Shown here piece by piece: positions 1-59,241 of a DNA stretch of 64,000 nt (the first letter of the stretch is position 1; every line of letters starts with the position of its first letter). The DNA lies in assembly GCA_903907815.1 (NCBI GenBank), contig CAIVPM010000035.1, positions 3,776 to 67,775 on the forward strand, in the 5' to 3' direction. The translations under genes and the position numbers were made by a program. The DNA is from an uncultured Chitinophagaceae bacterium. GTDB lineage: Bacteria > Bacteroidota > Bacteroidia > Chitinophagales > Chitinophagaceae. The notes below the pieces were generated by a model. The model ran no database searches, was not told where the DNA came from, and saw only the letters and a program-made list of their open reading frames with translations.

Positions 1-156
1 ATTGAAGTAGTTTCTGGTAAATTCAAATATGGGTTTGAATTAGAAGTTACGACTGCTACTTATGGTTCTACTACTCAAACTAATGGTAAAGCTGGTGGTA
101 GTATGAGTGAATTTACCAACACAAGAGGCTTGTTTTATACATCGTATTCATTTTAA
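1..156 (+). CDS. 3' end of an upstream gene (partial); probable outer-membrane beta-barrel/porin C-terminus
   Basis: Frame 1 is open from the window edge to TAA at 154-156. The translation ends ...GKFKYGFELEVTTATYGSTTQTNGKAGGSMSEFTNTRGLFYTSYSF. It has an alternating beta-strand pattern and a terminal Phe, as in OM barrels. Confidence 0.35.
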   Translation: MEVVSGKFKYGFELEVTTATYGSTTQTNGKAGGSMSEFTNTRGLFYTSYSF

Positions 157-186: not shown

Positions 187-1725
187 ATGAACAATAACGA
201 AACAAAAGGGATATGGAAAGTTATAGGTGCCTCCTCCCTTGGTACCTTAATAGAATGGTACGATTTTTACATCTTTGGTAGTCTTGCTACAGTTATTGCA
301 AGCCAGTTTTTTCCTAAAACGAACCCAACTGCTGCCTTACTTTCTACCTTGGCAACCTTTGCTGCAGGTTTTATAGTAAGACCTTTTGGTGCGTTGGTTT
401 TTGGTAGACTAGGCGATTTAATTGGAAGAAAACATACCTTCCTGCTTACTTTAGTATTAATGGGAGGCTCTACATTCCTTATAGGTTGTGTGCCTAGTTA
501 TGAAAGTATTGGTTTTCTGGCACCTATCTTAGTATTAATACTCCGTCTTTTACAAGGCCTTGCTTTGGGTGGTGAATATGGAGGTGCGGCTACCTATGTT
601 GCAGAACATTCTCCTAACCATAGAAGAGGGTACTTTACTTCCTGGATTCAAACTACTGCAACACTAGGTTTATTTATTTCTTTGGGTGTAATTCTACTTA
701 CCCGTCATAGTCTTGATGCTGATGCAGCAAAGTCAATCGCTAAGTTCAATGACTGGGGCTGGAGAATTCCTTTCTTATTATCAGCAGTACTGGTAGTGGT
801 TTCCATTTATATCAGATTGAAAATGAAAGAATCTCCAATCTTTTCAAAGTTAAAATCTGAAGGAAAAACATCAACTAATCCACTAAAAGAAAGCTTTGCG
901 CACAAAGCAAATCTAAAGATGGTATTACTGGCATTGTTTGGTGCTACAATGGGTCAAGGTGTTGTATGGTATACAGGACAGTTTTATGCTCAGTCTTTTA
1001 TTGAGAATGTATGTAAAGTTGATTTCGATCAATCCAGAACAATGATTATCTGGGGTATCCTTTTTGCAACACCATTCTTTGTTGTTTGGGGTTCTTTGAG
1101 TGATAAAGTTGGTAGAAAATGGATTATGATTCTTGGTATGTTGATTGCTGTTGTTACTTATAAATATCTATTTACGCAGATACTAAATATTACTGATGCA
1201 AAAGCTAAAGTAGAAATTGTTGATAAAAGAGAGGTAAAACCTACGCTTTCACTAATTAAAAACTCTACAGATTCTTTACGAAAAGTAGTTACTAAAACAT
1301 ACTACGAAGATGGTATGAAGATGGTGGAAACAAAGACCGATACAGTGTACTCTGCTATAGGTAAAAAAACAATCAAACCTGTGGTAGCTGTTGCTAAAAC
1401 TTTAGGAGATAGTGATTACTGGAAAATTGTAGGAATAGTATTTATTCTAATTTTCTATGTAACTATGGTATATGGTCCAATAGCTGCATTCTTAGTAGAA
1501 TTATTCCCTACCAAAATCAGGTATACCTCTATGTCTTTACCTTATCATATAGGTAATGGAGTATTTGGTGGATTAACGCCATTTATTGCTACTTTATTCA
1601 CTACAATTTATACCAATGATAAAACTGTTGGTTTAATGTATCCAATTGTTATTGCTACATTATGTTGTGTGATAGGTGCATTATATATTCGTAACAGAAT
1701 TGATCCTGAAGTAGAGGGCGTTTAA
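187..1725 (+). CDS. MFS transporter, metabolite:H+ symporter (MHS)-like, with a large hydrophilic insertion
   Basis: Multi-TM MFS pattern. Loop motifs GRLGDLIGRKHTF and SDKVGRKW. An approx. 80-aa non-hydrophobic insert lies at aa ~336-412. Confidence 0.8.
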   Translation: MNNNETKGIWKVIGASSLGTLIEWYDFYIFGSLATVIASQFFPKTNPTAALLSTLATFAAGFIVRPFGALVFGRLGDLIGRKHTFLLTLVLMGGSTFLIGCVPSYESIGFLAPILVLILRLLQGLALGGEYGGAATYVAEHSPNHRRGYFTSWIQTTATLGLFISLGVILLTRHSLDADAAKSIAKFNDWGWRIPFLLSAVLVVVSIYIRLKMKESPIFSKLKSEGKTSTNPLKESFAHKANLKMVLLALFGATMGQGVVWYTGQFYAQSFIENVCKVDFDQSRTMIIWGILFATPFFVVWGSLSDKVGRKWIMILGMLIAVVTYKYLFTQILNITDAKAKVEIVDKREVKPTLSLIKNSTDSLRKVVTKTYYEDGMKMVETKTDTVYSAIGKKTIKPVVAVAKTLGDSDYWKIVGIVFILIFYVTMVYGPIAAFLVELFPTKIRYTSMSLPYHIGNGVFGGLTPFIATLFTTIYTNDKTVGLMYPIVIATLCCVIGALYIRNRIDPEVEGV

Positions 1726-1756: not shown

Positions 1757-2020
1757 ATGAATAAGTTAAAGAGATATGCTGGAATTATCTGGATCATTTT
1801 AGGTCCTTTAGCTATACACTATTTGATGGCTACAGCGGAGAGTGAAATTGCTAAAAAACCAGTAATAGATACACAAATACAATGGGGAGTTTTCCTTACC
1901 ATATTCTATCCTATTGTTATTGGTTTTATCCTTTTCGGTTTATATGCTCTGGAAGGAAACTACGATCACATTCCTGAATCAAGTGCAGAAATAGATGATT
2001 ACGATGTAAAACCATTGTAA
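1757..2020 (+). CDS. small membrane protein, unknown function
   Basis: 87 aa with two hydrophobic helices (IIWIILGPLAIHYL, VFLTIFYPIVIGFILFGLYAL). Starts 31 nt after the MFS stop, same strand. Confidence 0.45.
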   Translation: MNKLKRYAGIIWIILGPLAIHYLMATAESEIAKKPVIDTQIQWGVFLTIFYPIVIGFILFGLYALEGNYDHIPESSAEIDDYDVKPL

Positions 2021-2084: not shown

Positions 2085-2309
2085 ATGCCATATATGATTA
2101 GTAAGAAGAAAACATCCAAGCTGATTTTTATTGCTGTCTTGTTCTTAATGTTATTCAGTTTTCCTTTTATAAAGATGATGAATAAAGATTCCTTTATTGG
2201 TCATTTCCCCCTACTTTACTTTTATATCTTTTTCATCTGGTTACTAGTTATATTTATTATAGCAGTAGTAGTAGAAAGAAGAAGAAAAATACCGGCTGCT
2301 GATGAGTAA
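2085..2309 (+). CDS. small two-helix membrane protein, translationally coupled to the sensor kinase (CbrX-like arrangement)
   Basis: 74 aa and hydrophobic. Its stop TAA (2307-2309) overlaps the kinase ATG (2302-2304) in the sequence ATGAGTAA. Confidence 0.5.
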   Translation: MPYMISKKKTSKLIFIAVLFLMLFSFPFIKMMNKDSFIGHFPLLYFYIFFIWLLVIFIIAVVVERRRKIPAADE

Positions 2310-5001
2310 TCTGGTCATCATATTAAGTTCCATATTTTATTTAATTTCCCTATTTGCAATAGGGTATTATGCCGAAGTGCGTGCCAGACTTAAGAAGAGC
2401 ATTATCAATAATCCGTATATATATTCTTTGTCATTGGCCGTGTTCTGTACTGCATGGACTTTCTTTGGAAGCGTTGGAAGAGCAACTGTTACTGGCCCTG
2501 AATTTCTGTTTATTTATATAGGCCCTACATTACTTGCTCCTTTATTTATAGTATTGCTGAGAAAAATTATCAGAATATCCAAGACCCAGAGAATTACCAG
2601 TATTGCCGATTTTATTTCTACCCGTTACGGCAAGAATATCTCCTTAGGAATAATAGTTACACTACTATGTGTGCTGGGTATTATTCCTTACATAGCTATT
2701 CAATTAAAAGCTATTAGTAGTAGTATTGAAATATTGAATGGCACTATCAATCAGACAAATAACAACTTCAATATATTGGAGGATACAACATTCTATATAG
2801 CCATGGGGCTTGCGGCTTTTGTAATCCTTTTTGGAACAAGAACTATCGATGCTACCGAAAAGCATGAAGGACTGGTAGCTGCAATAGCTTTCGAATCTAT
2901 TGTAAAGCTTATTGCATTTATATCCGCTGGTCTGTTTGTTACCTATTTTCTCTTTGATGGTTTTGGTGATATTATGCAGAAAGCTGCCGCTGATAATCAC
3001 TTGCAACAACTCTTTACTTTTAAAGGGGGCAATATGTATTTTCAAACGTTTGCCTTAATGTTTTTATCTATGATGGCAGTGCTATTTCTACCCCGTCAGT
3101 TCCACCTTTCAGTAGTAGAAAATATCGAGGAAAGTCACTTGGTAAAAGCTACCTGGCTATTTCCTCTATATCTTTTTGTCATCAATATTTTTGTAATTCC
3201 CATTGCTTTTGGTGGGGCATTAATTTTCCACGGTCAGCATATTAATCCTGATACCTATGTACTGGCATTGCCTATGCATTCGGGTAATAAGTTCCTTGCA
3301 TTGCTGGTGTATATAGGAGGCTTTTCTGCTGCCGGGAGTATGATTATAGTAGAAACAATTGCACTGGGTATTATGATCAGCAATCAGATTGTAATGCCGC
3401 TGTTGCTTGCTTTTAAAAAGTTTAAAATTAATATAGATAAGAATTTCAGTACCATACTTTTATTCAATCGTAGAGCAAGTATTGTAGCTATCATTTTCTT
3501 CGCTTATCTGTATGATAAATTTATTGCAGAAAAATATTCACTGGTTTCCATAGGCCTTATTTCTTTTGCTGCAGTAGCACAGTTTGCTCCTTGTATTATT
3601 GGTGGTATTTACTGGAAACAAGCAAATAAAAAAGGCGCTGTTGCTGGGATACTGTTAGGGTTTACTGTCTGGTTTTATACTTTAATATTTCCTTCTATTA
3701 CCGGACATTTCTTTGATGCAGTAAATCAAAATGGTCTCTTTGGAATTGCTATGCTTAAACCTACTTCCTTGTTTGGTTTAGATGGGTTTGATACTGTTAC
3801 CCACGGATTCTTCTGGAGCATGTTTTTTAATACACTTGCCTTTATCAGTATTTCGCTTACTACTGAAAAGGAAACAGATGAGTTTTATCAGGCCGAAATG
3901 TTTGTAGATGTATTTAAATATTCCCGTCAGTCGGCCGAAGATTCTATTGCCTGGAGGGGTACTGCTTATATACCCGATTTAAAAGTTTTATTAAACAACT
4001 TTATTGGTAAAGAAAGAACCGATACTATACTGAATAATTATGCTAAAAAGAAAAATATCAATATTAATACTACTACAAAAGCTAACCCTGCACTGGTAAA
4101 CTTTTCGGAAAGAATACTGGCAGGTGCTATAGGTTCTGCCTCTGCAAGAATTATGATAAAGAGTGTAGTAAAAGAAGAAGAACTTAGCATGACCGAAGTG
4201 TTGAAAATACTACATGAAAGTCAGATGATGAAGGAGACCAATAAAGAGCTTCGTAAGAAATCGAATGAGTTACAGAAGGCAACCAATCAGTTACAGAAAG
4301 TTAACGAACAGCTGAAGCATATTGATGAAATGAAAGACGAGTTTTTATATACCGTCACACATGAACTTCGTACACCGCTTACTTCTATCAGAGCGCTGAG
4401 CGAGATAGTACACGACAATCCTGATTTGCCCGACGAAATGAAGAACGAATACCTTGGTGCTGTGATAAAAGAAACACAGCGATTAAGTTATTTAATTACA
4501 CAGGTATTAAATCTGGAACGTTATGAAAGCGGTAGAACAAAACTAAACATTTCTAATGTTGATATTGCAGCACTTTTGTATGGTACTGCCGATAGAGTAA
4601 AGTCGCTTATTGCCGAAAAAGGAATTAAGCTGGAGTTTAAAATACCTTTCAATATGTCTGCAGTAAAGGGGGATGATGACTTGTTGAATCAGGTGTTTTA
4701 CAACCTTATTTCCAATGCAGTAAAACATGCTGAAAGTATAATTAATGTATCGGTACATACTTCTGACGATACGGTGCTTATACAAGTAATGGATGATGGA
4801 AAGGGTATTGCAGCAGAAGTACATGAATTGATTTTTGATAAGTTTTTTCAGGCAAAGAATCAGACTTTAAAGAAGCCCGAGGGTAGTGGTCTGGGATTGG
4901 CTATCTGTAAGCGCATTATAGAAATGCACAATGGTAAAATATGGGTGGAAAGTGAAGTTGATAATGGAGCCACTTTTAAAGTAGAAATACCTATAACATA
5001 A
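2302..5001 (+). CDS. sensor histidine kinase with N-terminal sodium:solute symporter (SLC5/SSF) domain, CbrA/CrbS-like
   Basis: About 520 aa of polytopic SSF-like membrane domain, then a STAC-like linker and a coiled coil (ELRKKSNELQKATNQLQKVNEQLK). H-box FLYTVTHELRTPLTSI. ATPase boxes NLISNAVKH, DDGKGI, GSGLGLAICK. No C-terminal receiver. Confidence 0.85.
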   Translation: MSNLVIILSSIFYLISLFAIGYYAEVRARLKKSIINNPYIYSLSLAVFCTAWTFFGSVGRATVTGPEFLFIYIGPTLLAPLFIVLLRKIIRISKTQRITSIADFISTRYGKNISLGIIVTLLCVLGIIPYIAIQLKAISSSIEILNGTINQTNNNFNILEDTTFYIAMGLAAFVILFGTRTIDATEKHEGLVAAIAFESIVKLIAFISAGLFVTYFLFDGFGDIMQKAAADNHLQQLFTFKGGNMYFQTFALMFLSMMAVLFLPRQFHLSVVENIEESHLVKATWLFPLYLFVINIFVIPIAFGGALIFHGQHINPDTYVLALPMHSGNKFLALLVYIGGFSAAGSMIIVETIALGIMISNQIVMPLLLAFKKFKINIDKNFSTILLFNRRASIVAIIFFAYLYDKFIAEKYSLVSIGLISFAAVAQFAPCIIGGIYWKQANKKGAVAGILLGFTVWFYTLIFPSITGHFFDAVNQNGLFGIAMLKPTSLFGLDGFDTVTHGFFWSMFFNTLAFISISLTTEKETDEFYQAEMFVDVFKYSRQSAEDSIAWRGTAYIPDLKVLLNNFIGKERTDTILNNYAKKKNININTTTKANPALVNFSERILAGAIGSASARIMIKSVVKEEELSMTEVLKILHESQMMKETNKELRKKSNELQKATNQLQKVNEQLKHIDEMKDEFLYTVTHELRTPLTSIRALSEIVHDNPDLPDEMKNEYLGAVIKETQRLSYLITQVLNLERYESGRTKLNISNVDIAALLYGTADRVKSLIAEKGIKLEFKIPFNMSAVKGDDDLLNQVFYNLISNAVKHAESIINVSVHTSDDTVLIQVMDDGKGIAAEVHELIFDKFFQAKNQTLKKPEGSGLGLAICKRIIEMHNGKIWVESEVDNGATFKVEIPIT

Positions 5002-5015
5002 CAGTATAAATTTAT

Positions 5016-5194
5016 TCAAATGTATTTATTCAAAATTATAAATTACTGTATCAACCGCTTGCGGTTCTCTGTGTTCACTGTATTTAAAAAATACGTTGTG
5101 TTACTCGGTGCTCTCCGTGTCTCTGTGGTTCAATTGTATTTGTATTATCCTGTCTCCTATCTCCTGTCTCCTCTAAAATATAAAATGTAAAGTC
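5016..5194. repeat. mosaic intergenic repeat (core TGTATTTGTATT plus CTCTGTG-type and TCCTGTCTCC-type word runs)
   Basis: Core at 5135-5146, with degenerate cores at 5018-5031 and 5078-5085. Flanking words include GGTTCTCTGTGTTCAC, GTGCTCTCCGTGTCTCTGTGGTTC and ATCCTGTCTCCTATCTCCTGTCTCCTCT. The same modules recur at the other loci listed under repeat features. Confidence 0.8.
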
Positions 5195-7486
5195 ATGACA
5201 AAGAATCAGCACAAAGTATTGGTAGTGGACGATGATCCATACATATTGATGTCTCTGGAGTTTTTGATGAAAAAGAATGGGTACGATGTGCTCATTGCCC
5301 GTAATGGTACCGAGGCATTAAACATTATTAATGCATCACCTTTACACCTTGTGTTGCTCGATATCATGATGCCCGATGTGGATGGTTATGCTATTTGTAA
5401 ACATATAAAGAATACGCCTGCTTTAGCAGATATTAAAGTAATATTCCTATCTGCAAAAACAAAGGATTCCGACATTAAAAAAGGCTACGAACTGGGGGCC
5501 GATTTATTCATTACCAAACCTTTTAGTACCCGCAATCTTATTCAGCAGGTGGAGGGGGTATTAACCAAAGTAAAAGAAGCGCATCGCAATATTTATCAGG
5601 AAGAATACTTTAAGAGCATTAACAGCTCCGAACTTTTCTGGAGAGAGAAAGCGAAGGAGATAGACTGGTTCGAATTTCCTGAAAACATTTTAACCAAAGA
5701 AGAAAACAATCTGTATCGCTGGTACAAAGGCGGCAAGCTAAATACAGCGCATCTATGTCTGGATTACCATGTAAAGAATGGCAGAGGCAATCAGACGGCT
5801 CTTATTTATGATTCTCCGGTAACAAAAACCATTCGTAAATATTCTTATTCCGAACTGACCGATGAAGTTGCAAGACTGGCTGGTGGATTACAAAAACTTG
5901 GTATTGTAAAAGGCGATACAGTGGTTATTTATATGCCAATGATTCCGCAGGCTTTAATGGCTATGCTGGCCTGTGCCCGTATAGGTGCAGTGCATAGTGT
6001 AGTGTTTGGTGGCTTTGCCCCTCACGAACTTTCTGTGCGTATAGATGATGCAGAACCAAAGGCCATTATCACTGCCACTTATGGTATAGAAGTAGATAAA
6101 AAGATTGCTTACAAACCATTGGTCGATCATGCTATTATGGAGGCTTATCATAAGCCAAACCATGTAATTGTTTATCAGCGCGAAGGCATGATGTGCTATA
6201 TGGATGAAGAGCGCGATGTAGACATGCAACAATTGATGCAGGAATCTGCTCCGGCCAGCTGTGTGCCGGTAGATGCTACCGATCCTTTATACATATTATA
6301 TACTTCTGGTACTACTGGAAAACCTAAAGGAATTGTTCGCGATAATGGTGGCCATGCAGTGGCTTTAAAGTATAGTATGAAGAGTATTTACAACGCCGAT
6401 CCGGGCGATGTATTCTGGGCTGCCAGCGATGTAGGTTGGGTAGTAGGCCATAGCTATATTGTATACGCTCCTTTACTGCAGGGGTGTACAACGGTACTCT
6501 TTGAAGGTAAGCCAGTAAAAACACCCGATGCTGGAGAGTTCTGGAGAGTGGCGGCCGAGCATAAAGTAAAGGTGATGTTTACCGCACCTACTGCCATAAG
6601 AGTAATTAAAAAAGAAGATTCCGATGGACTTTTATTCAAGAATAAAGACCTCTCTGCTTTGCAGTATTTGTTCCTTGCAGGCGAACGCTGCGATCCCGCT
6701 ACCCTTCACTGGGTAAGCGATTTGCTGGGCAAGCCAGTAATAGATCATTGGTGGCAAACCGAAAGTGGATGGCCAATGCTGGGCATTATGCAGGGACTGG
6801 AAAAGATGACTTCCAAATCGGGGTCTGCAGGTAAACCTATCTGCGGTTTCGATGTACAGATAATAGAAGACGATGGCACGATTATTGAAAACGATGAGGA
6901 AGGTTTTGTTACCGTAAAACTTCCTTTACCGCCTGGTTGTCTGCCTACCTTATGGAAGGATGATGATGACTGGTTTAAACAGTCTTATTTATTCAAGTTC
7001 CCAGGCTACTATCTTACCGGCGATGGCGGCTATCGCGACAAGGAAGGGTTCTTCCATATCATGGGTAGGGTAGATGATGTAATTAATGTATCGGGACATA
7101 GATTAAGTACCGGCGAAATGGAGGAAATTATCTCGCATCATCCCGCTATTGCCGAGTGTGCTGTAATAGGTATTGCCGATCCTATTCGCGGTCAGCGCCC
7201 TATAGGTTTGTTTGTAATGAAAGATAATCACCACAATACCGAGGAAGAACTGGAGCATGAATTAGTGTTGTTGATGCGTGATAAAATTGGTGCCGTAGCG
7301 TTCTTTAAAACAGCAGTACTGGTTAAGCGTTTACCCAAAACAAGAAGTGGTAAAATACTGCGTAAAACTATGCGCTTCCTGGCCGATGCTGTACCCTTTA
7401 CCGTACCATCTACTATCGACGATCCAATAATTCTGGACGAGATTAAAGAGGTACTGATCAGAAGAGAAATAATGAAGGCGGTTTAG
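5195..7486 (+). CDS. response-regulator receiver domain fused to PrpE/Acs-type acyl-CoA synthetase (propionate/acetate--CoA ligase-like)
   Basis: aa 1-~125 form a receiver: DD at 13-14, acceptor D56 in VLLDIMMPDVDG, FLSAKT, ITKPF. aa ~130-763 are collinear with E. coli PrpE. Matching motifs are HSVVFGGFA, YTSGTTGKPKG, DVGWVVGHSYIVYAPL, FTAPTAIRV, DVINVSGHRLST, LPKTRSGKILR and IDDP. Confidence 0.85.
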   Translation: MTKNQHKVLVVDDDPYILMSLEFLMKKNGYDVLIARNGTEALNIINASPLHLVLLDIMMPDVDGYAICKHIKNTPALADIKVIFLSAKTKDSDIKKGYELGADLFITKPFSTRNLIQQVEGVLTKVKEAHRNIYQEEYFKSINSSELFWREKAKEIDWFEFPENILTKEENNLYRWYKGGKLNTAHLCLDYHVKNGRGNQTALIYDSPVTKTIRKYSYSELTDEVARLAGGLQKLGIVKGDTVVIYMPMIPQALMAMLACARIGAVHSVVFGGFAPHELSVRIDDAEPKAIITATYGIEVDKKIAYKPLVDHAIMEAYHKPNHVIVYQREGMMCYMDEERDVDMQQLMQESAPASCVPVDATDPLYILYTSGTTGKPKGIVRDNGGHAVALKYSMKSIYNADPGDVFWAASDVGWVVGHSYIVYAPLLQGCTTVLFEGKPVKTPDAGEFWRVAAEHKVKVMFTAPTAIRVIKKEDSDGLLFKNKDLSALQYLFLAGERCDPATLHWVSDLLGKPVIDHWWQTESGWPMLGIMQGLEKMTSKSGSAGKPICGFDVQIIEDDGTIIENDEEGFVTVKLPLPPGCLPTLWKDDDDWFKQSYLFKFPGYYLTGDGGYRDKEGFFHIMGRVDDVINVSGHRLSTGEMEEIISHHPAIAECAVIGIADPIRGQRPIGLFVMKDNHHNTEEELEHELVLLMRDKIGAVAFFKTAVLVKRLPKTRSGKILRKTMRFLADAVPFTVPSTIDDPIILDEIKEVLIRREIMKAV

Positions 7487-7489
7487 GAT

Positions 7490-7560
7490 TAGTGGATTGG
7501 CTGATTGAATACAAATTGATTGTAAATAGATAGGAAAACTAATAGAGAGAAGTGTGCAGA
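7490..7560. repeat. mosaic intergenic repeat module (GGATTAG/GGATTGG words + GAATACAAAT core, reverse orientation)
   Basis: GGATTAGTGGATTGGCTGATTGAATACAAAT starts immediately after the stop of the 5195-7486 gene, followed by AGAGAGAAGTGTGCAGAGAA. It parallels 61297-61358. Confidence 0.6.
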
Positions 7561-7691
7561 GAATAGCTAGCTGTTGAAGCGGATATTAATTACCAGTAGA
7601 TATAATTTAACTTGTTTGGGAAAGCTTGAACTAGCAATCAGAGGCGAAAAAAGTAGCACTTTAAGTGTATTTATTTAAATAATTGAATTTT

Positions 7692-7950
7692 AGAGGGCAT
7701 AAATGTTTTTTTCTTTGGAGTTGACGTTGCTTTTATAGACGTAGGAGTTGCTTTTTCTTAAATTGACGTTGCTCCTGTTGGGATAGACGTTGCTTTTGGA
7801 GACGTAAATGTTTTTTTCGTTGGAATAGACGTTGCTTTTAGGGACGCAGGAGTTGCTTTTTCAAAAATTGATGTTGCTTCTGTTGGGGTAGACGTTGCTA
7901 TTGGAGACGTAAAAGTTGATTTTGTTGGGATAAACGTTGCTTTTTTAGGG
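7692..7950. repeat. non-coding tandem array, 105-bp super-repeat made of five ~21-bp subunits (core GACGTTGCTTTT)
   Basis: GACG-type sites at 7723/7828/7933, 7738/7843, 7765/7870, 7786/7891 and 7801/7906 are each exactly 105 bp apart. No ORF of 60 aa or more. Confidence 0.9.
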
Positions 7951-8024
7951 ATATATCTTTCGATGAAAGCTAACTTTATTATAATTACTCAATAATAAGG
8001 CTCAGATTACTTTGATTGCAAAAG

Positions 8025-8207
8025 GTATGTATTTGCCTTTGCGTTAGTGCCAGCAGGGAATATCCTTTTGCTACCACCCCTGAACATGCTTTAAAATTGC
8101 ACCTAATACCAGTGGTAGCAAAAGATAGGAAAGGCTGGAACGGCCGCTTGCGGAACGCCCAAAAAACTAATTGACAATTGATGATGGATAATTGATAATG
8201 AATACAA
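8025..8207 (+). repeat. approx. 180-bp mosaic element with conserved arms and a variable internal hairpin; inverted copy at 28784-28957
   Basis: GCGTTAGTGCCAGCAGGGAATA (8041-8062) and GATAGGAAAGGCTGGAACGGCCGCTTGCGGAACGCCCAAAA (8124-8164) are matched in reverse complement at 28924-28945 and 28829-28870. The internal 13-bp stem is 8065-8077/8112-8124. The ends are GTATGTATTTG and GAATACAA. Confidence 0.85.
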
Positions 8208-8332
8208 CTTGAAGGTATATATTTATAAATGATTGAACTGCCAGATCGTGTTTTTTAAAAACTTCATATTAAGTTAACCTACCCGTAACATTCAGTTCAC
8301 ATACAATCCGTCCTTTTGCTAAACCTTCAGAT

Positions 8333-14532: not shown

Positions 14533-15582
14533 ATGGTGAACAAAAAAATTGGTTTTAATGATACCTGGGTATTGCTGATTGGTATACCTTTTACGGCATT
14601 TATTATTCCAATTGTTTTTAATGGAGTCCGGTTTACCAGAGAGCCATTATATAGTCCAAGAATATTTTTTATTGCACTGTTTTATACGGTAATACTATGG
14701 GTTGGAAACCGATATATAATGATCTGGGCAAGAAAGAAATATCCGCATTTTGATGATGTGAAGAGAAGGATTATAACGCAGTCTGTAATCATGTTCTTAT
14801 TTACCATAATTGCTTGTAATCTATTGGGGTTTGCAGAATTTCGTATTCTTGAAGTATGGCTACAATATCCCTGTAATAATGCGTCCCCAATAGATAAATT
14901 AATTGATGGCAACAATGCTGCTTTGTTCTGTAGTTTAACCGTTTCGGCTATATACGAATCAAAGTATTTTATGCACGAATTAAAAAGTTCAGTTGAGGAA
15001 AAAGAATTATTAAAAAGGGAAGCGCTACAATCGCAGTTAAATGCTTTAAAAACGCAGATTAATCCTCATTTTTTGTTTAATAACTTAAATACTTTAAGTG
15101 CAATTATTCCAGATAATCCACAACAGGCAGTAGATTTTGTACAACAGTTATCAAAAGTGTATCGCCACATATTAGCAGTGAAAGATGAAGAGCATATACC
15201 ATTAGAAAATGAGCTTGAAGTGCTGGAGTCCTATTCCTTTTTACTGAAAACGAGATTTGAAGACAATATTAATATCACCATTAATGTGCCATCGAAGTAT
15301 TATTCATTTCAAATACCCCCCTTGTGCTTACAACTGTTGATGGAGAACGCTATTAAGCACAATATCATTTCTACAGATAAGCCATTATACATTGAAGTAT
15401 CTGTAGTAAATGATAAATTGGTTTTTAAAAATAACCTTCAAAAGAAAATACAATCTGTTGATTCGACAGGTATAGGGTTGAATAATATAAAAAACAGGAT
15501 GAAGTTGCTTACCGATAAACCTGTTCAGATAACGCAGACAGATACTTATTTTGCAGTAACAATTCCACTATTAAGTATTTAA
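14533..15582 (+). CDS. LytS/YehU-type sensor histidine kinase
   Basis: N-terminal TM helices. His_kinase motif QINPHFLFNNLNTLS. ATPase motifs MENAIKHN and GIGLNNIKNR. Confidence 0.8.
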   Translation: MVNKKIGFNDTWVLLIGIPFTAFIIPIVFNGVRFTREPLYSPRIFFIALFYTVILWVGNRYIMIWARKKYPHFDDVKRRIITQSVIMFLFTIIACNLLGFAEFRILEVWLQYPCNNASPIDKLIDGNNAALFCSLTVSAIYESKYFMHELKSSVEEKELLKREALQSQLNALKTQINPHFLFNNLNTLSAIIPDNPQQAVDFVQQLSKVYRHILAVKDEEHIPLENELEVLESYSFLLKTRFEDNINITINVPSKYYSFQIPPLCLQLLMENAIKHNIISTDKPLYIEVSVVNDKLVFKNNLQKKIQSVDSTGIGLNNIKNRMKLLTDKPVQITQTDTYFAVTIPLLSI

Positions 15583-15586
15583 CTAC

Positions 15587-16348
15587 ATGAAAGTAATTAT
15601 TATTGAAGATGAAATACCAGCTGCAAAAAGGTTTGCAAAACTTATTACTAATGTGGATGAAAGTATAGAGATTGTTGCCAGATTCGATAGCATAGAATCG
15701 TCGGTTAAATACTTGCAGACTCAACCCATAATAGATTTGATATTTATGGATATTCAGTTAGCGGATGGTTTGTGTTTTACCATATTTGAACAAGTAAATA
15801 TTGCTACTCCCGTTATATTCACTACAGCATTTGACAAATACACCTTAAAAGCATTTAAAGTAAATAGTGTAGACTATTTATTGAAACCAATAGATGAAGA
15901 AGAACTATCAGTTGCAATTGAGAAATATAATCAAATTCATAAGAAAGAAATTACTAATCAATTTGATAAGTTTTCTGGTCTGTTAAATGATCTGGGTGTT
16001 GCAAAATACAAAGACCGTCTGATTATTAAAAGAGGGAAACAGATAAGCTTTATAAAGACGGAAGATATTGCCTGTTTTTATGCCAATGGTAAGTTGTGTT
16101 ATATAGTAGACAATAATAATCAAAAATATTTAGCAGAAGATAATCTTAGCAATCTATCAATGAAGCTGAATCCTAAGAACTTTTATCGGATAAACAGAAC
16201 AATGATTATCAATATTGCTGCTATTAAAAATACTGTTATCTGGTTGGGAGGAAGATTGAAAGTTGAATTACAAATTCCTACCAATGAAGAAACTATAGTT
16301 AGTCGCGAAAGGGTAGGTGGATTTAAGGAATGGCTTGATGGCGAATAA
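15587..16348 (+). CDS. LytTR-family response regulator
   Basis: Receiver (IIIEDE, FMDIQLADG, LLKP) plus a C-terminal LytTR domain (FYRINRTMIINI...VSRERV). Starts 4 nt after the kinase. Confidence 0.85.
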   Translation: MKVIIIEDEIPAAKRFAKLITNVDESIEIVARFDSIESSVKYLQTQPIIDLIFMDIQLADGLCFTIFEQVNIATPVIFTTAFDKYTLKAFKVNSVDYLLKPIDEEELSVAIEKYNQIHKKEITNQFDKFSGLLNDLGVAKYKDRLIIKRGKQISFIKTEDIACFYANGKLCYIVDNNNQKYLAEDNLSNLSMKLNPKNFYRINRTMIINIAAIKNTVIWLGGRLKVELQIPTNEETIVSRERVGGFKEWLDGE

Positions 16349-25599: not shown

Positions 25600-25790
25600 T
25601 GAGTGATGTATTAAACAGCTTGCTGTTCTCTGCGTTCTCTGTATTTGTATTCATTATCACATTATCAAATCATCAATTATCTGATTAGAAAGAATTCTCT
25701 GCGTCCTTTGCGTAACTGTATTTGTATTATAATTTTCTCTGTGTTCCTCAGTGTCGTCAGTGTCTCTGTGGTTCAAATGTATTCAACCAA
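25600..25790. repeat. mosaic intergenic repeat, three same-orientation cores
   Basis: TGTATTTGTATTC at 25640-25652, TGTATTTGTATT at 25717-25728 and AAATGTATTC at 25775-25784. These are interleaved with CTCTGCG/CTCTGTG words and ATTATCA words. Confidence 0.85.
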
Positions 25791-28783: not shown

Positions 28784-28957
28784 TTATTTGTATTCATTAT
28801 CAATTATCCATTTTCCATTATCAATTAATTTTGGGCGTTCCGCAAGCGGCCGTTCCAGCTCTTCCTATCTTTTTTTCACATGTATTTGTATTAAATCCCT
28901 CCTTTGGAGGGTTGGGGAGGCTGTATTCCCTGCTGGCACTAACGCATATACAAATAC
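28784..28957 (-). repeat. inverted copy of the 8025-8207 mosaic element
   Basis: TTATTTGTATTC + ATTATCAATTATCC words; TTTTGGGCGTTCCGCAAGCGGCCGTTCCAGC (28829-28859); internal hairpin CCCTCC-TTT-GGAGGG (28897-28911); TATTCCCTGCTGGCACTAACGC (28924-28945); ATACAAATAC end. Confidence 0.85.
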
Positions 28958-28987
28958 ACCCATGTAATGCTGTATAAAATTTGTTTC

Positions 28988-59160: not shown

Positions 59161-59194
59161 AAAGGGCACAGAACCATCAAGTTCCATGCCCTTT
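59161..59194 (-). terminator. intrinsic terminator candidate downstream of fumC
   Basis: AAAGGGCA-CA-GAAC-CATCAA-GTTC-CA-TGCCCTTT extended hairpin. On the minus strand it is followed by TTTTCTATTT. Confidence 0.5.
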
Positions 59195-59241
59195 GTATTT
59201 GTATTCTCCTTACTCCTATCTCCTCACTCCTGTCTCCTCTA
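59193..59241. repeat. mosaic intergenic repeat module abutting the fumC stop
   Basis: TTGTATTTGTATTCTCCTTACTCCTATCTCCTCACTCCTGTCTCCTCT. Same word type as 5147-5174 and, in reverse, 63945-63975. Confidence 0.8.

What the first reader, a model, noticed from the sequence alone, without database searches (positions are those of the whole stretch)
2302..7486. Two-component pair whose visible output is an enzyme: SLC5-type sensor kinase followed by a receiver::PrpE-type acyl-CoA synthetase fusion
Seen: the 899-aa kinase has a polytopic sodium:solute-symporter-like N-terminal half, a STAC-like linker, a coiled coil, the H-box HELRTPL and a complete ATPase domain, but no receiver of its own.

The next gene on the same strand, 193 nt downstream, opens with a complete receiver. 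It has DD13-14, acceptor D56 in LLDIMMPDVDG, FLSAKT and ITKPF. From about aa 130 it continues without interruption into a full-length adenylate-forming acyl-CoA synthetase that is collinear with E. coli PrpE. Shared motifs are YTSGTTGKPKG, DVGWVVGHSYIVYAPL, DVINVSGHRLST, and LPKTRSGKILR containing the acetylation-regulated Lys. No DNA-binding output domain is encoded in or beside the pair.

Established: SLC5-domain kinases CrbS and CbrA signal to DNA-binding regulators. CrbS/CrbR switches on acs transcription for the acetate switch in Vibrio and Pseudomonas.

Inference: the transcriptional step may be short-circuited here, with carboxylate sensing or transport by the SLC5 domain gating CoA-ligase activity directly by phosphorylation of the fused receiver.
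Basis: partly seen in the sequence, partly recalled or inferred. Interest (0 to 1): 0.72.

Follow-up and report, generated by a model that had tools for sequence, protein, structure and literature searches.

The report
Signal receiver fused to propionyl-CoA synthetase
A transporter-like membrane sensor kinase sits next to a gene in which the kinase's phosphate-receiving domain is joined to a fatty-acid-activating enzyme instead of a DNA-binding domain, which suggests, without proving, that the signal controls the enzyme directly rather than through gene expression.

Summary
The kinase (2302..5001) is an SLC5-STAC-DHp-CA sensor kinase homologous to CbrA. It has no PAS domain and no receiver of its own. 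The next gene (5195..7486) is one frame encoding a canonical receiver, a roughly 10-residue flexible linker and a full PrpE-type acyl-CoA synthetase.

The fusion is not an artefact. It recurs in at least 18 protein clusters and at least 10 independent assemblies. Both halves are under strong purifying selection. It arose at least twice.

The wider context changes the picture. The pair is the tail of a conserved Bacteroidota cassette that runs off the window's left edge. In most relatives the receiver is a separate 118-134 aa single-domain protein encoded between the kinase and a PrpE-like or Acs-like synthetase gene. The kinase family occurs in more than 590 species, and no DNA-binding regulator was found next to it in the 80 loci examined.

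A conserved Zn-ribbon/HTH gene heads the cassette outside the window. Outside Bacteroidota the same receiver sits beside a PAS/exonuclease protein.

Direct phospho-control of the ligase is the best-supported reading (about 0.5) but is untested. I found no publication describing this system.

The parts
1..156 (+). 3' end of a roughly 450-aa cassette gene with no Pfam family (porin-like, ending ...YSF), cut by the window edge
   Evidence: The frame-1 translation aligns with the C-termini of the ORFs upstream of the MFS gene in L012 and L013. The full-length relatives have no Pfam or NCBIfam match.
187..1725 (+). MFS metabolite/H+ symporter, a conserved cassette member
   Evidence: Sugar_tr and MFS_1 hits, and TIGR00883 at 366 bits. 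It holds the same position in most Bacteroidota loci.
1757..2020 (+). DUF6814 small membrane protein, always found after the MFS gene
   Evidence: PF20664 at E=3e-26. Synteny shown.
2085..2309 (+). 74-aa two-helix membrane ORF overlapping the kinase start by 8 nt. It is analogous to CbrX in position and predicted topology.
   Evidence: conserved across phyla, with an 8-nt overlap in 22 loci and a 4-nt overlap in 6. The role of CbrX is described in PMC13022988. No sequence hit to the CbrX chain.
2302..5001 (+). SLC5-STAC-coil-DHp-CA sensor histidine kinase, 899 aa, without PAS or receiver
2317..3900 (+). SLC5/SSS-like polytopic domain (aa 6-533)
   Evidence: phmmer against 10ed_A gives E=1.2e-72. 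Some homologues carry a precomputed PF00474 hit.
3919..4161 (+). STAC-like cytoplasmic domain (about aa 540-620)
   Evidence: The family profile aligns without a break through chain residues 496-589 of 10ED. The single sequence gives no hit.
4330..4533 (+). HisKA/DHp domain, with the phospho-acceptor H687 at nt 4360-4362
   Evidence: PF00512 at E=7e-16. H687 is invariant in alignment A2.
4669..4995 (+). HATPase_c catalytic domain
   Evidence: PF02518 at E=9e-30.
5002..5194 (.). 193-nt intergenic spacer. About 155 nt of it are absent from the closest relative, L009, where the gap is 24 nt.
   Evidence: No Rfam family matches.
5195..7486 (+). Receiver::PrpE-type acyl-CoA synthetase fusion, 763 aa
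5216..5551 (+). Receiver domain (aa 8-119), with D56 at nt 5360-5362
   Evidence: PF00072 at E=1e-27, conserved key residues and the (beta/alpha)5 model.
5561..5593 (+). Variable linker (aa 123-133)
   Evidence: pLDDT<50 at residues 126-131, no sequence conservation and dN/dS of 0.20 against 0.02-0.03 in the flanking domains.
5594..7354 (+). ACAS_N, AMP-binding and AMP-binding_C domains (aa 134-720), with the A10 lysine K720 at nt 7352-7354

Best explanation
Proposed mechanism:
- The 899-aa protein is a transporter-like (SLC5-STAC) histidine kinase. It probably works together with the small two-helix membrane peptide encoded just upstream.
- Its cognate partner is the receiver domain at the N-terminus of the next protein.
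- Phosphorylation of D56 changes the receiver's alpha4-beta5-alpha5 face. Through a short flexible tether, this switches the attached PrpE-type short-chain acyl-CoA synthetase, most likely by relieving or imposing a docking interaction, as in CheB-type receiver-enzyme fusions.
- Activation of imported carboxylate to its CoA ester would then be matched to what the membrane sensor or transporter sees, without a transcriptional step.
- In most relatives the same control would act in trans, from a stand-alone receiver encoded between the kinase and the synthetase gene. The fusion fixes the 1:1 pairing.

Shown here: the domain architecture, homology, conservation, synteny and recurrence of the fusion.

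Inferred: phosphotransfer from this kinase, the sign and mechanism of the effect on the ligase, and the identity of the ligand (a short-chain carboxylate).
For: - The fused frame recurs in at least 18 clusters at 55-90% identity from ENA, JGI, NCBI and Logan and in loci L005-L014 and L019.
- In fused loci the fused receiver is the only receiver near the kinase.
- Across the 80 GTDB species loci, 71 hold an orthologous single-domain receiver. In 38 of them it is directly followed by, or fused to, a PrpE-like or Acs-like gene. No locus has an adjacent receiver with a DNA-binding domain.
- In Desulfobacterales the gene order is reversed (PrpE-like then REC), yet the adjacency is kept.
- There are at least two independent fusions. 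The main fused clade has bootstrap 94-99. The fused L007/P0098 is sister, with bootstrap 100, to the unfused L028, whose REC stop and PrpE start overlap as ATGA. The linkers differ between lineages.
- dN/dS is 0.017 for the receiver and 0.034 for the synthetase part.
- All phospho-chemistry residues of the receiver are conserved, and the model shows a canonical fold with a flexible tether.
- Established knowledge, from memory: known N-terminal REC-enzyme fusions such as CheB, PleD and RpfG all use the receiver to control the attached catalytic domain. Unregulated Acs or PrpE activity is harmful, and elsewhere it is restrained post-translationally by acylation of the A10 lysine.
Against: - There is no biochemical evidence of any kind.
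- Receivers 67-77% identical to this one are stand-alone in more than 100 clusters.
- In several Bacteroidota loci the receiver is the last gene of the operon, with no synthetase gene following it (L015-17, L020-21, L024).
- Outside Bacteroidota the receiver's constant neighbour is a roughly 720-aa PAS/DHp-like/DEDD-exonuclease protein. The receiver therefore probably has another, older partner.
- A conserved Zn-ribbon/HTH protein heads the cassette in fused lineages as well.
- Neighbouring genes in this cassette fuse readily: PrpE-like::Acs-like tandems of 1272-1287 aa also occur. A fusion can therefore arise from adjacency alone.
- The AlphaFold output gave no inter-domain error estimate, so no receiver-enzyme interface could be assessed.
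Confidence: 0.5

Rival explanations
1. The receiver is a relay or connector, and the fusion is incidental. The kinase phosphorylates the receiver, which then passes the signal to a DNA-binding protein. That protein could be the cassette's Zn-ribbon/HTH protein or a remote response regulator reached through an Hpt, as with Spo0F. The outcome would be transcriptional control of the transporter and synthetase cassette. Joining the receiver to PrpE is then a tolerated by-product of two translationally coupled neighbouring genes.
For: - The Zn-ribbon/HTH gene is 65-70% identical across loci whose kinases are only 52-60% identical. It is present in nearly all Bacteroidota loci with enough flanking sequence, including fused ones.
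- The receiver occurs at operon ends without a synthetase gene.
- Outside Bacteroidota it sits beside a different partner.
- A 4-nt ATGA overlap between REC and PrpE in L028 makes fusion a one-step event.
- Other neighbour fusions occur in the same cassette.
Against: - In fused lineages no free receiver copy remains near the kinase. The relay would have to work while a 635-aa enzyme is tethered by about 10 residues next to the alpha4-beta5-alpha5 face.
- The fusion persists down to 55-68% identity under strong purifying selection and arose at least twice.
- The Zn-ribbon/HTH gene is absent from non-Bacteroidota loci that have the same kinase-receiver pair.
Confidence: 0.25
2. Information flows the other way. 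The synthetase acylates lysines of the tethered receiver through its acyl-adenylate or acyl-CoA product, as E. coli Acs acetylates CheY. The receiver would then integrate enzyme flux with the kinase signal, or the modification would feed back on kinase-receiver signalling.
For: - Acs-mediated acetylation of CheY at K91, K92, K109, K119, K122 and K126, on the alpha4-beta5-alpha5 surface, is documented in PMC2883070.
- The receiver here has the conserved DIKKGY motif (K95, K96) and K108 at what appear by eye to be the corresponding positions. No alignment to CheY was made.
- Receiver and synthetase genes are adjacent across phyla.
Against: - Conserved lysines at these positions are common in receivers, and K108 is needed for phospho-chemistry in any case.
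- CheY acetylation in vivo is reported to be mostly autoacetylation.
- This reading does not explain what the modified receiver would then act on.
Confidence: 0.1
3. The receiver is a phosphate sink or a structural appendage with no regulatory effect on the ligase. The kinase's real output is elsewhere in the genome.
For: - Single-domain receivers acting as sinks are known (general knowledge).
- Only 64 kb of this genome is visible. The one other response regulator seen in the window is a LytTR type at 15587..16348, and it has its own kinase.
Against: - The phospho-chemistry residues and the alpha4 surface are conserved across phyla.
- Pairing with this kinase family is nearly universal (71 of 80 loci).
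- Recurrent 1:1 fusion is more than a sink would require.
Confidence: 0.1

Closest known systems
CrbS/CrbR (MxtR/ErdR) acetate-switch two-component system of Vibrio and Pseudomonas
   Same: Both have an SLC5-STAC sensor kinase genetically tied to short-chain acyl-CoA synthetase genes (PMC5715377, PMC5436829).
   Different: CrbS has a PAS domain and a C-terminal receiver (a hybrid kinase), and CrbR is a LuxR-type DNA-binding activator of acs. Here there is no PAS and no receiver on the kinase, and the partner has no DNA-binding domain and is fused to the synthetase itself.
CbrX/CbrA/CbrB of Pseudomonas (structure 10ED)
   Same: This is the closest solved relative of the sensor half, at E=4.8e-87 through the SLC5 and STAC domains. 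Both have a small two-helix ORF translationally coupled upstream of the kinase.
   Different: CbrA has a PAS domain, transports and senses histidine, and signals to the NtrC-type regulator CbrB. The small ORF here has no detectable sequence similarity to CbrX.
Receiver-enzyme response regulators (CheB, PleD/WspR, RpfG)
   Same: All have an N-terminal canonical receiver joined by a flexible linker to a catalytic domain. This is the general logic proposed here.
   Different: Those outputs are signalling enzymes (a methylesterase, and c-di-GMP synthesis or hydrolysis). Here the output is an adenylate-forming enzyme of central carbon metabolism. I found no paper describing this architecture.
PrpE and Acs controlled by lysine acylation (Pat/CobB, AcuA/AcuC)
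   Same: The enzyme class is the same: the closest solved relative is PrpE 5GXD at 54% identity. The target A10 lysine (K720) is retained. Control is post-translational in both cases.
   Different: The regulator would be a phospho-receiver tethered to the N-terminus, not an acyltransferase/deacylase pair.
Acs-dependent acetylation of CheY in E. coli
   Same: This is the only documented functional contact between a CheY-like receiver and an acetyl-CoA synthetase (PMC2883070).
   Different: There the enzyme modifies the receiver in trans, and the physiological role is debated. The proteins are not fused or encoded together.

Membership tests
SLC5/STAC sensor histidine kinases (CbrA, CrbS, RpuS) | N-terminal SLC5/SSS-like polytopic domain | tested here: met
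   10ed_A matches at E=1.2e-72 over aa 6-533 and at E=4.8e-87 with the family profile. Pfam SSF itself is not hit.
SLC5/STAC sensor histidine kinases (CbrA, CrbS, RpuS) | STAC domain between the transporter and kinase modules | tested here: met
   The profile alignment continues through chain residues 496-589 of 10ED, which include CbrA's STAC domain. The single-sequence search of this region was negative.
SLC5/STAC sensor histidine kinases (CbrA, CrbS, RpuS) | PAS domain before the DHp domain, as in CbrA and CrbS | tested here: not met
   There is no PAS hit at E<=10 over aa 1-680. Only about 55 residues of coil lie between the STAC-like region and HisKA.
SLC5/STAC sensor histidine kinases (CbrA, CrbS, RpuS) | DHp domain with a phospho-acceptor His, plus a CA domain | tested here: met
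   HisKA 677-744 with H687, and HATPase_c 790-898.
CrbS/CrbR system specifically | Hybrid kinase with a C-terminal receiver, and a LuxR-type DNA-binding partner that activates acs | tested here: not met
   The kinase has no receiver. The adjacent partner lacks any DNA-binding domain here and in the 80 related loci.
CheY-like receiver domains | Acidic pair, phospho-acceptor Asp, Ser/Thr and Lys in a (beta/alpha)5 fold | tested here: met
   D12, D13, D56, S86 and K108-P109 are present, and all but S86 (Ser or Thr among the relatives) are at least 95% conserved in 77 orthologues. PF00072 hits at E=1e-27. The model's secondary-structure order is b1a1...b5a5.
Propionate--CoA ligase PrpE (NCBIfam NF007815 / TIGR02316) | Score above the curated equivalog cut-off | tested here: not met
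   735 bits against a cut-off of 955, and 687 bits against 827. The Acs subfamily model also falls short, at 651 bits against 657. PrpE is the best match, but equivalence is not certified.
Propionate--CoA ligase PrpE (NCBIfam NF007815 / TIGR02316) | Full-length collinearity and the adenylate-forming core motifs, including the A10 Lys | tested here: met
   Profile positions 4-627 of 629 are aligned. 5GXD is 54% identical with TM 0.95. The motifs at aa 369-379, 412-427, 628-639 and 713-723 are present.
Propionate--CoA ligase PrpE (NCBIfam NF007815 / TIGR02316) | Propionate as the preferred substrate | not testable with these tools
   This needs enzyme assays. The solved relative 5GXD carries the entry title 'acryloyl-CoA lyase PrpE'.
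Receiver-enzyme response regulators | Catalytic activity changes on phosphorylation of the receiver | not testable with these tools
   Only the architecture, conservation and synteny could be examined.

The most novel reading that the evidence does not exclude
A very widespread family of transporter-like (SLC5-STAC) kinases, found in more than 590 species across Bacteroidota, Desulfobacterota, Chloroflexota, Proteobacteria and others, never signals to a DNA-binding regulator. It acts through one orthologous single-domain receiver that works post-translationally. In Bacteroidota that receiver switches short-chain acyl-CoA synthetases, and the fusion in this window is the hard-wired form. In other phyla it controls a PAS/DHp-like/DEDD-exonuclease protein. 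This would be a two-component pathway that sets metabolic flux directly.
Probability: 0.3. Interest if true: 0.85.

Novelty: new variant of a known kind. Interest (0 to 1): 0.64.

Why it matters
- **A new kind of output.** Two-component systems are understood almost entirely as transcriptional switches or as controllers of signalling enzymes. A receiver wired to an acyl-CoA synthetase would be direct phospho-control of entry into central carbon metabolism.
- **An alternative to acylation control.** It would do the job that the Pat/CobB lysine-acylation system does for Acs and PrpE.
- **A tractable test system.** The fused protein contains regulator and target in one soluble polypeptide. This makes an open question testable: what do SLC5-STAC 'transceptor' kinases sense, and how do their single-domain partners act?
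- **Scope.** The cassette is common in freshwater and soil Bacteroidota that consume short-chain fatty acids, and I found no publication describing it.

Tried and rejected
- **Assembly or frameshift artefact: rejected.** The same frame is found in many independent assemblies and is under purifying selection.
- **Degenerate pseudo-receiver: rejected**.
- **Whole-library HMMER search with aa 1-200, to count fusions at 50% clustering: uninformative.** The top 150 hits were multi-receiver proteins. The fused proteins are probably clustered under unfused PrpE representatives.
- **Third word-indexed search with aa 1-200: little gained.** It gave only four truncated fused fragments, plus more than 100 stand-alone receiver clusters.
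- **Pfam SSF on the kinase: negative**. The STAC-like region searched against the PDB as a single sequence was also negative. Both questions were settled only by the family profile.
- **Small ORF against the CbrX chain: no hit**. The CbrX analogy rests on position, overlap with the kinase start and predicted topology.
- **Trp-based acetate/propionate pocket discrimination: dropped.** The WWQTE motif is shared by Acs and PrpE in the alignments.
- **Rfam, repeat and promoter/terminator scans of the 193-nt spacer: nothing above background**.
- **Zn-ribbon/HTH gene inside the window: none found**. It is expected to lie beyond the left edge.
- **Literature searches: no description found** for the fusion, the cassette, DUF6814, or single-domain receivers with Acs.
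- **Deep nodes of the PrpE tree: unsupported.** More than two fusion events cannot be claimed.
Full report
**1. What is in the window**

Two same-strand ORFs lie at the stated coordinates, 2302..5001 (899 aa) and 5195..7486 (763 aa), with 193 nt between them.

Pfam places HisKA (aa 677-744) and HATPase_c (aa 790-898) in the first protein and finds no receiver there. In the second it places Response_reg (8-119), ACAS_N (134-188), AMP-binding (196-575) and AMP-binding_C (641-720).

The kinase's N-terminal half is not recognised by Pfam SSF, even at E<=10. It does match the solved structure 10ED at E=1.2e-72. 10ED is the cryo-EM structure of the SLC5-STAC part of Pseudomonas putida CbrA together with the peptide CbrX (PMC13022988). 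A profile of 12 family members matches 10ED at E=4.8e-87 in one stretch, profile positions 5-620 against chain residues 9-589. That stretch runs through the STAC domain.

About 55 residues of heptad-like sequence link the STAC-like region to the H-box (H687). There is no PAS domain. The kinase therefore belongs to the SLC5/STAC class, but it is neither CbrA-like (which has PAS) nor CrbS-like (which has PAS and a C-terminal receiver).

**2. The fusion protein**

The receiver has D12, D13, D56, S86 and K108-P109-F110. All of these except S86 (Ser or Thr among the relatives) are at least 95% conserved across 77 orthologous receivers, whether fused or free.

An AlphaFold2 model built from a 41-sequence alignment has mean pLDDT 84.8 and pTM 0.72. 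It shows a regular (beta/alpha)5 receiver at pLDDT about 88, a low-confidence linker at residues 126-131, and a complete two-domain adenylate-forming enzyme.

The enzyme part is collinear with NCBIfam's PrpE models but scores below their equivalog cut-offs (735 bits against 955). It also falls just below the Acs subfamily cut-off. Its best solved relative is PrpE of Dinoroseobacter shibae, 5GXD: E=6e-230, 54% identity, TM 0.95. Salmonella Acs is about 39% identical. 'PrpE-type' is a fair description, but substrate preference is untested. The A10 lysine (K720), which is the acylation target in Acs and PrpE (from memory), is invariant.

**3. The fusion is not an artefact**

Proteins with the same architecture form at least 18 clusters at 55-90% identity, drawn from ENA, JGI, NCBI and Logan assemblies. 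The fused frame is present in loci L005-L014 and L019.

Against the closest relative, L009, dN/dS is 0.017 for the receiver, 0.034 for the enzyme and 0.20 for the linker.

**4. The wider cassette**

At least 593 stretches encode a full-length relative. They come from Bacteroidota, Desulfobacterales, Chloroflexota, Proteobacteria, Nitrospirota and Spirochaetia. I scanned all ORFs of the 80 retained loci with the window's proteins.

In Bacteroidota the conserved gene order is:
- a divergent acs gene;
- a 140-aa Zn-ribbon + HTH protein;
- a roughly 450-aa protein with no family;
- an MFS metabolite/H+ symporter;
- DUF6814;
- a roughly 70-aa two-helix ORF that overlaps the kinase start;
- the SLC5-STAC kinase;
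- a receiver;
- one or two acyl-CoA synthetase genes.

The window begins inside the roughly 450-aa gene. Frame 1 of nt 1-156 matches its C-terminus. The Zn-ribbon/HTH gene and the divergent acs gene are therefore expected just beyond the left edge, and no copy of the HTH gene lies inside the window.

The small ORF (2085..2309) overlaps the kinase start by 8 nt. The overlap is 8 nt in 22 loci and 4 nt in 6, and the ORF is conserved across phyla. It is analogous in position and predicted topology to CbrX, which binds the SLC5 domain of CbrA. No sequence similarity to CbrX was detectable.

**5. The receiver is normally a separate protein**

The 80 loci fall into these classes:

| Arrangement | Loci |
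|---|---|
| Receiver fused to a PrpE-like enzyme | 7 |
| Free 117-142 aa receiver directly followed by a PrpE-like gene | 13 |
| Free receiver directly followed by an Acs-like gene | 18 |
| Receiver after the kinase, then something else or the operon end | 20 |
| Receiver elsewhere within 10 kb | 13 |
| No receiver found (mostly short contigs) | 9 |

No locus has an adjacent receiver carrying a DNA-binding domain. Free receivers 67-77% identical to the window's receiver fill more than 100 clusters.

**6. The fusion arose more than once**

In neighbour-joining trees of the enzyme part, the window belongs to a fused clade with bootstrap 94-99. The fused L007/P0098 is sister, with bootstrap 100, to the unfused L028. 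In L028 the receiver's stop codon and the PrpE start codon overlap as ATGA.

The linkers are 8-11 residues long and unrelated in sequence between lineages. Other fused sequences (P0040-P0043) fall elsewhere in the tree, but those deep nodes are unsupported. I therefore claim at least two events and no more.

In three Desulfobacterales loci the order is reversed (PrpE-like then REC), on the strand opposite the kinase. Receiver-synthetase adjacency thus survives rearrangement across phyla.

**7. What limits the direct-gating reading**

- The Zn-ribbon/HTH protein resembles the IS1 InsA N-terminus (NF033558, E=4e-21). It is 65-70% identical between loci whose kinases are only 52-60% identical, and fused lineages keep it. 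It is an obvious candidate DNA-binding partner or an independent cassette regulator.
- In some Bacteroidota the receiver ends the operon, with no synthetase gene after it.
- Outside Bacteroidota the receiver's constant neighbour is a 700-740 aa protein with a PAS domain, weak similarity to histidine-kinase sensor/DHp regions, and a C-terminal DEDD exonuclease domain. Cytophagales keep a short exonuclease-only gene a few kb downstream.
- Neighbour fusions are frequent in this cassette. PrpE-like::Acs-like tandems of 1272-1287 aa also occur.

These points mean the synthetase is unlikely to be the receiver's sole or ancestral target. Adjacency alone can also generate fusions.

**8. Weighing the evidence**

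In fused lineages no free receiver copy remains near the kinase. Whatever the receiver does, it does while tethered by about 10 residues to a 635-aa enzyme, next to its usual output face. The arrangement has been kept under strong selection and arose at least twice. Every well-studied N-terminal receiver-enzyme fusion uses the receiver to control the attached catalytic domain (general knowledge). Translational coupling and fusion both enforce 1:1 stoichiometry, which suits a stoichiometric regulator better than a catalytic relay (inference).

I therefore rank the explanations as follows:
- Direct phospho-control of the PrpE-type ligase: about 0.5.
- Relay or connector to a DNA-binding protein, with an incidental fusion: 0.25.
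- Reverse flow, in which the enzyme acylates the receiver as E. coli Acs does to CheY (PMC2883070): 0.1. The receiver has K95/K96 and K108 at what appear by eye to be the corresponding positions; no alignment to CheY was made.
- Phosphate sink or no regulatory role: 0.1.

The sign of regulation, the docking mode and the sensed ligand are all inferences. The carboxylate idea rests only on the MFS/SSF and synthetase gene context.

**9. Comparison with known systems, and novelty**

The closest known systems are CrbS/CrbR and CbrX/CbrA/CbrB. The kinase shares their SLC5-STAC sensor and the link to acs, but not the PAS domain, the hybrid receiver or the DNA-binding partner. According to the 2021 review of the family (PMC7918813) and the abstract of the 2022 RpuS/R paper (PMC9100948), only a handful of SLC5 kinases have been characterised: CbrA, CrbS/MxtR, PrlS and RpuS. 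The review notes Bacteroidetes only in its account of how widely the domain is distributed.

Six literature searches found no description of a receiver::acyl-CoA synthetase protein, of this cassette, or of DUF6814. Automated JGI names such as 'acyl-CoA synthetase/.../response regulator' show that the architecture is present in databases.

I class it as a new variant of a known kind: a two-component system with an enzyme-output regulator, where the output is a central metabolic ligase.

**10. Verdict**

Interest is 0.64.

Noticed in passing
L087:3525-5684 (-), L081:3760-5949, L085:4441-6669, L053:13362-15470, L062:13234-15384 and others: Outside Bacteroidota the orthologous single-domain receiver is almost always next to a 700-740 aa protein. 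That protein has a PAS domain, weak similarity to histidine-kinase sensor/DHp regions, and a C-terminal DEDD (RNase_T/DnaQ-like) exonuclease domain. Cytophagales loci keep a 222-232 aa exonuclease-only ORF 4-6 kb downstream of the kinase. This may be a second, uncharacterised output of the same kinase-receiver pair.
   Followed up: partly
L002:3910-4338, L005:2152-2574, L007:615-1040 (left of the window's edge in relatives): A 140-aa protein with a Zn-ribbon and HTH, like the IS1 InsA N-terminus, plus a conserved roughly 50-aa C-terminal part. It heads the cassette in nearly all Bacteroidota loci and is 65-70% identical between distant loci. It looks like a domesticated transposase DNA-binding module, and it may be the cassette's transcription factor.
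   Followed up: partly
window 2085..2309 (+): A 74-aa ORF predicted to form two membrane helices. Its stop codon lies 8 nt inside the kinase gene, and it is conserved across phyla with the pattern ...NFP.L..F...G.P.LY.Y.... In position it is equivalent to CbrX of Pseudomonas.
   Followed up: yes
L027:13137-16988; proteins P0006, P0010, P0012-P0038: Tandem PrpE-like::Acs-like fusion proteins of 1272-1287 aa occur in Pontibacter litorisediminis, Lutibacter, Psychroflexus and other Flavobacteriia. In sister genomes the two synthetase genes are separate neighbours.
   Followed up: partly
window 5002..5194: The kinase-to-fusion spacer is 193 nt. The closest relative (L009) has 24 nt, and other relatives have short gaps of about 10 nt or overlaps. 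The extra roughly 155 nt contain short direct repeats (TCCTGTCTCCT twice). Pieces of the spacer recur at window positions about 25640-25783, 28881-28958 and 59193-59241. This may be a small repeated intergenic element or an internal promoter.
   Followed up: partly
window 7487..8332: An 846-nt stretch downstream of the fusion gene has no ORF of 60 aa or more. It holds a tandem array at 7700-7944 (period 105 nt, 2.3 copies, with a 21-nt sub-repeat containing GACGTTGCT). The segment 8028-8207 is 76% identical to 28788-28958 on the other strand.
   Followed up: partly
L007:7592-8830 (-): In the independently fused lineage an AAA_14/DUF4143 ATPase gene is inserted on the opposite strand between the kinase and the fusion gene. 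The pair is therefore not co-transcribed there.
   Followed up: no
window 14533..16348 (+): A separate LytS-type histidine kinase (PF06580) and LytTR response regulator pair. This is the only other response regulator found in the window.
   Followed up: yes
window 1..156 (+): The window starts inside a roughly 450-aa conserved gene with no known family. The protein ends in ...YSF, a C-terminal aromatic residue typical of outer-membrane beta-barrels. It lies between the HTH gene and the MFS transporter in relatives.
   Followed up: partly
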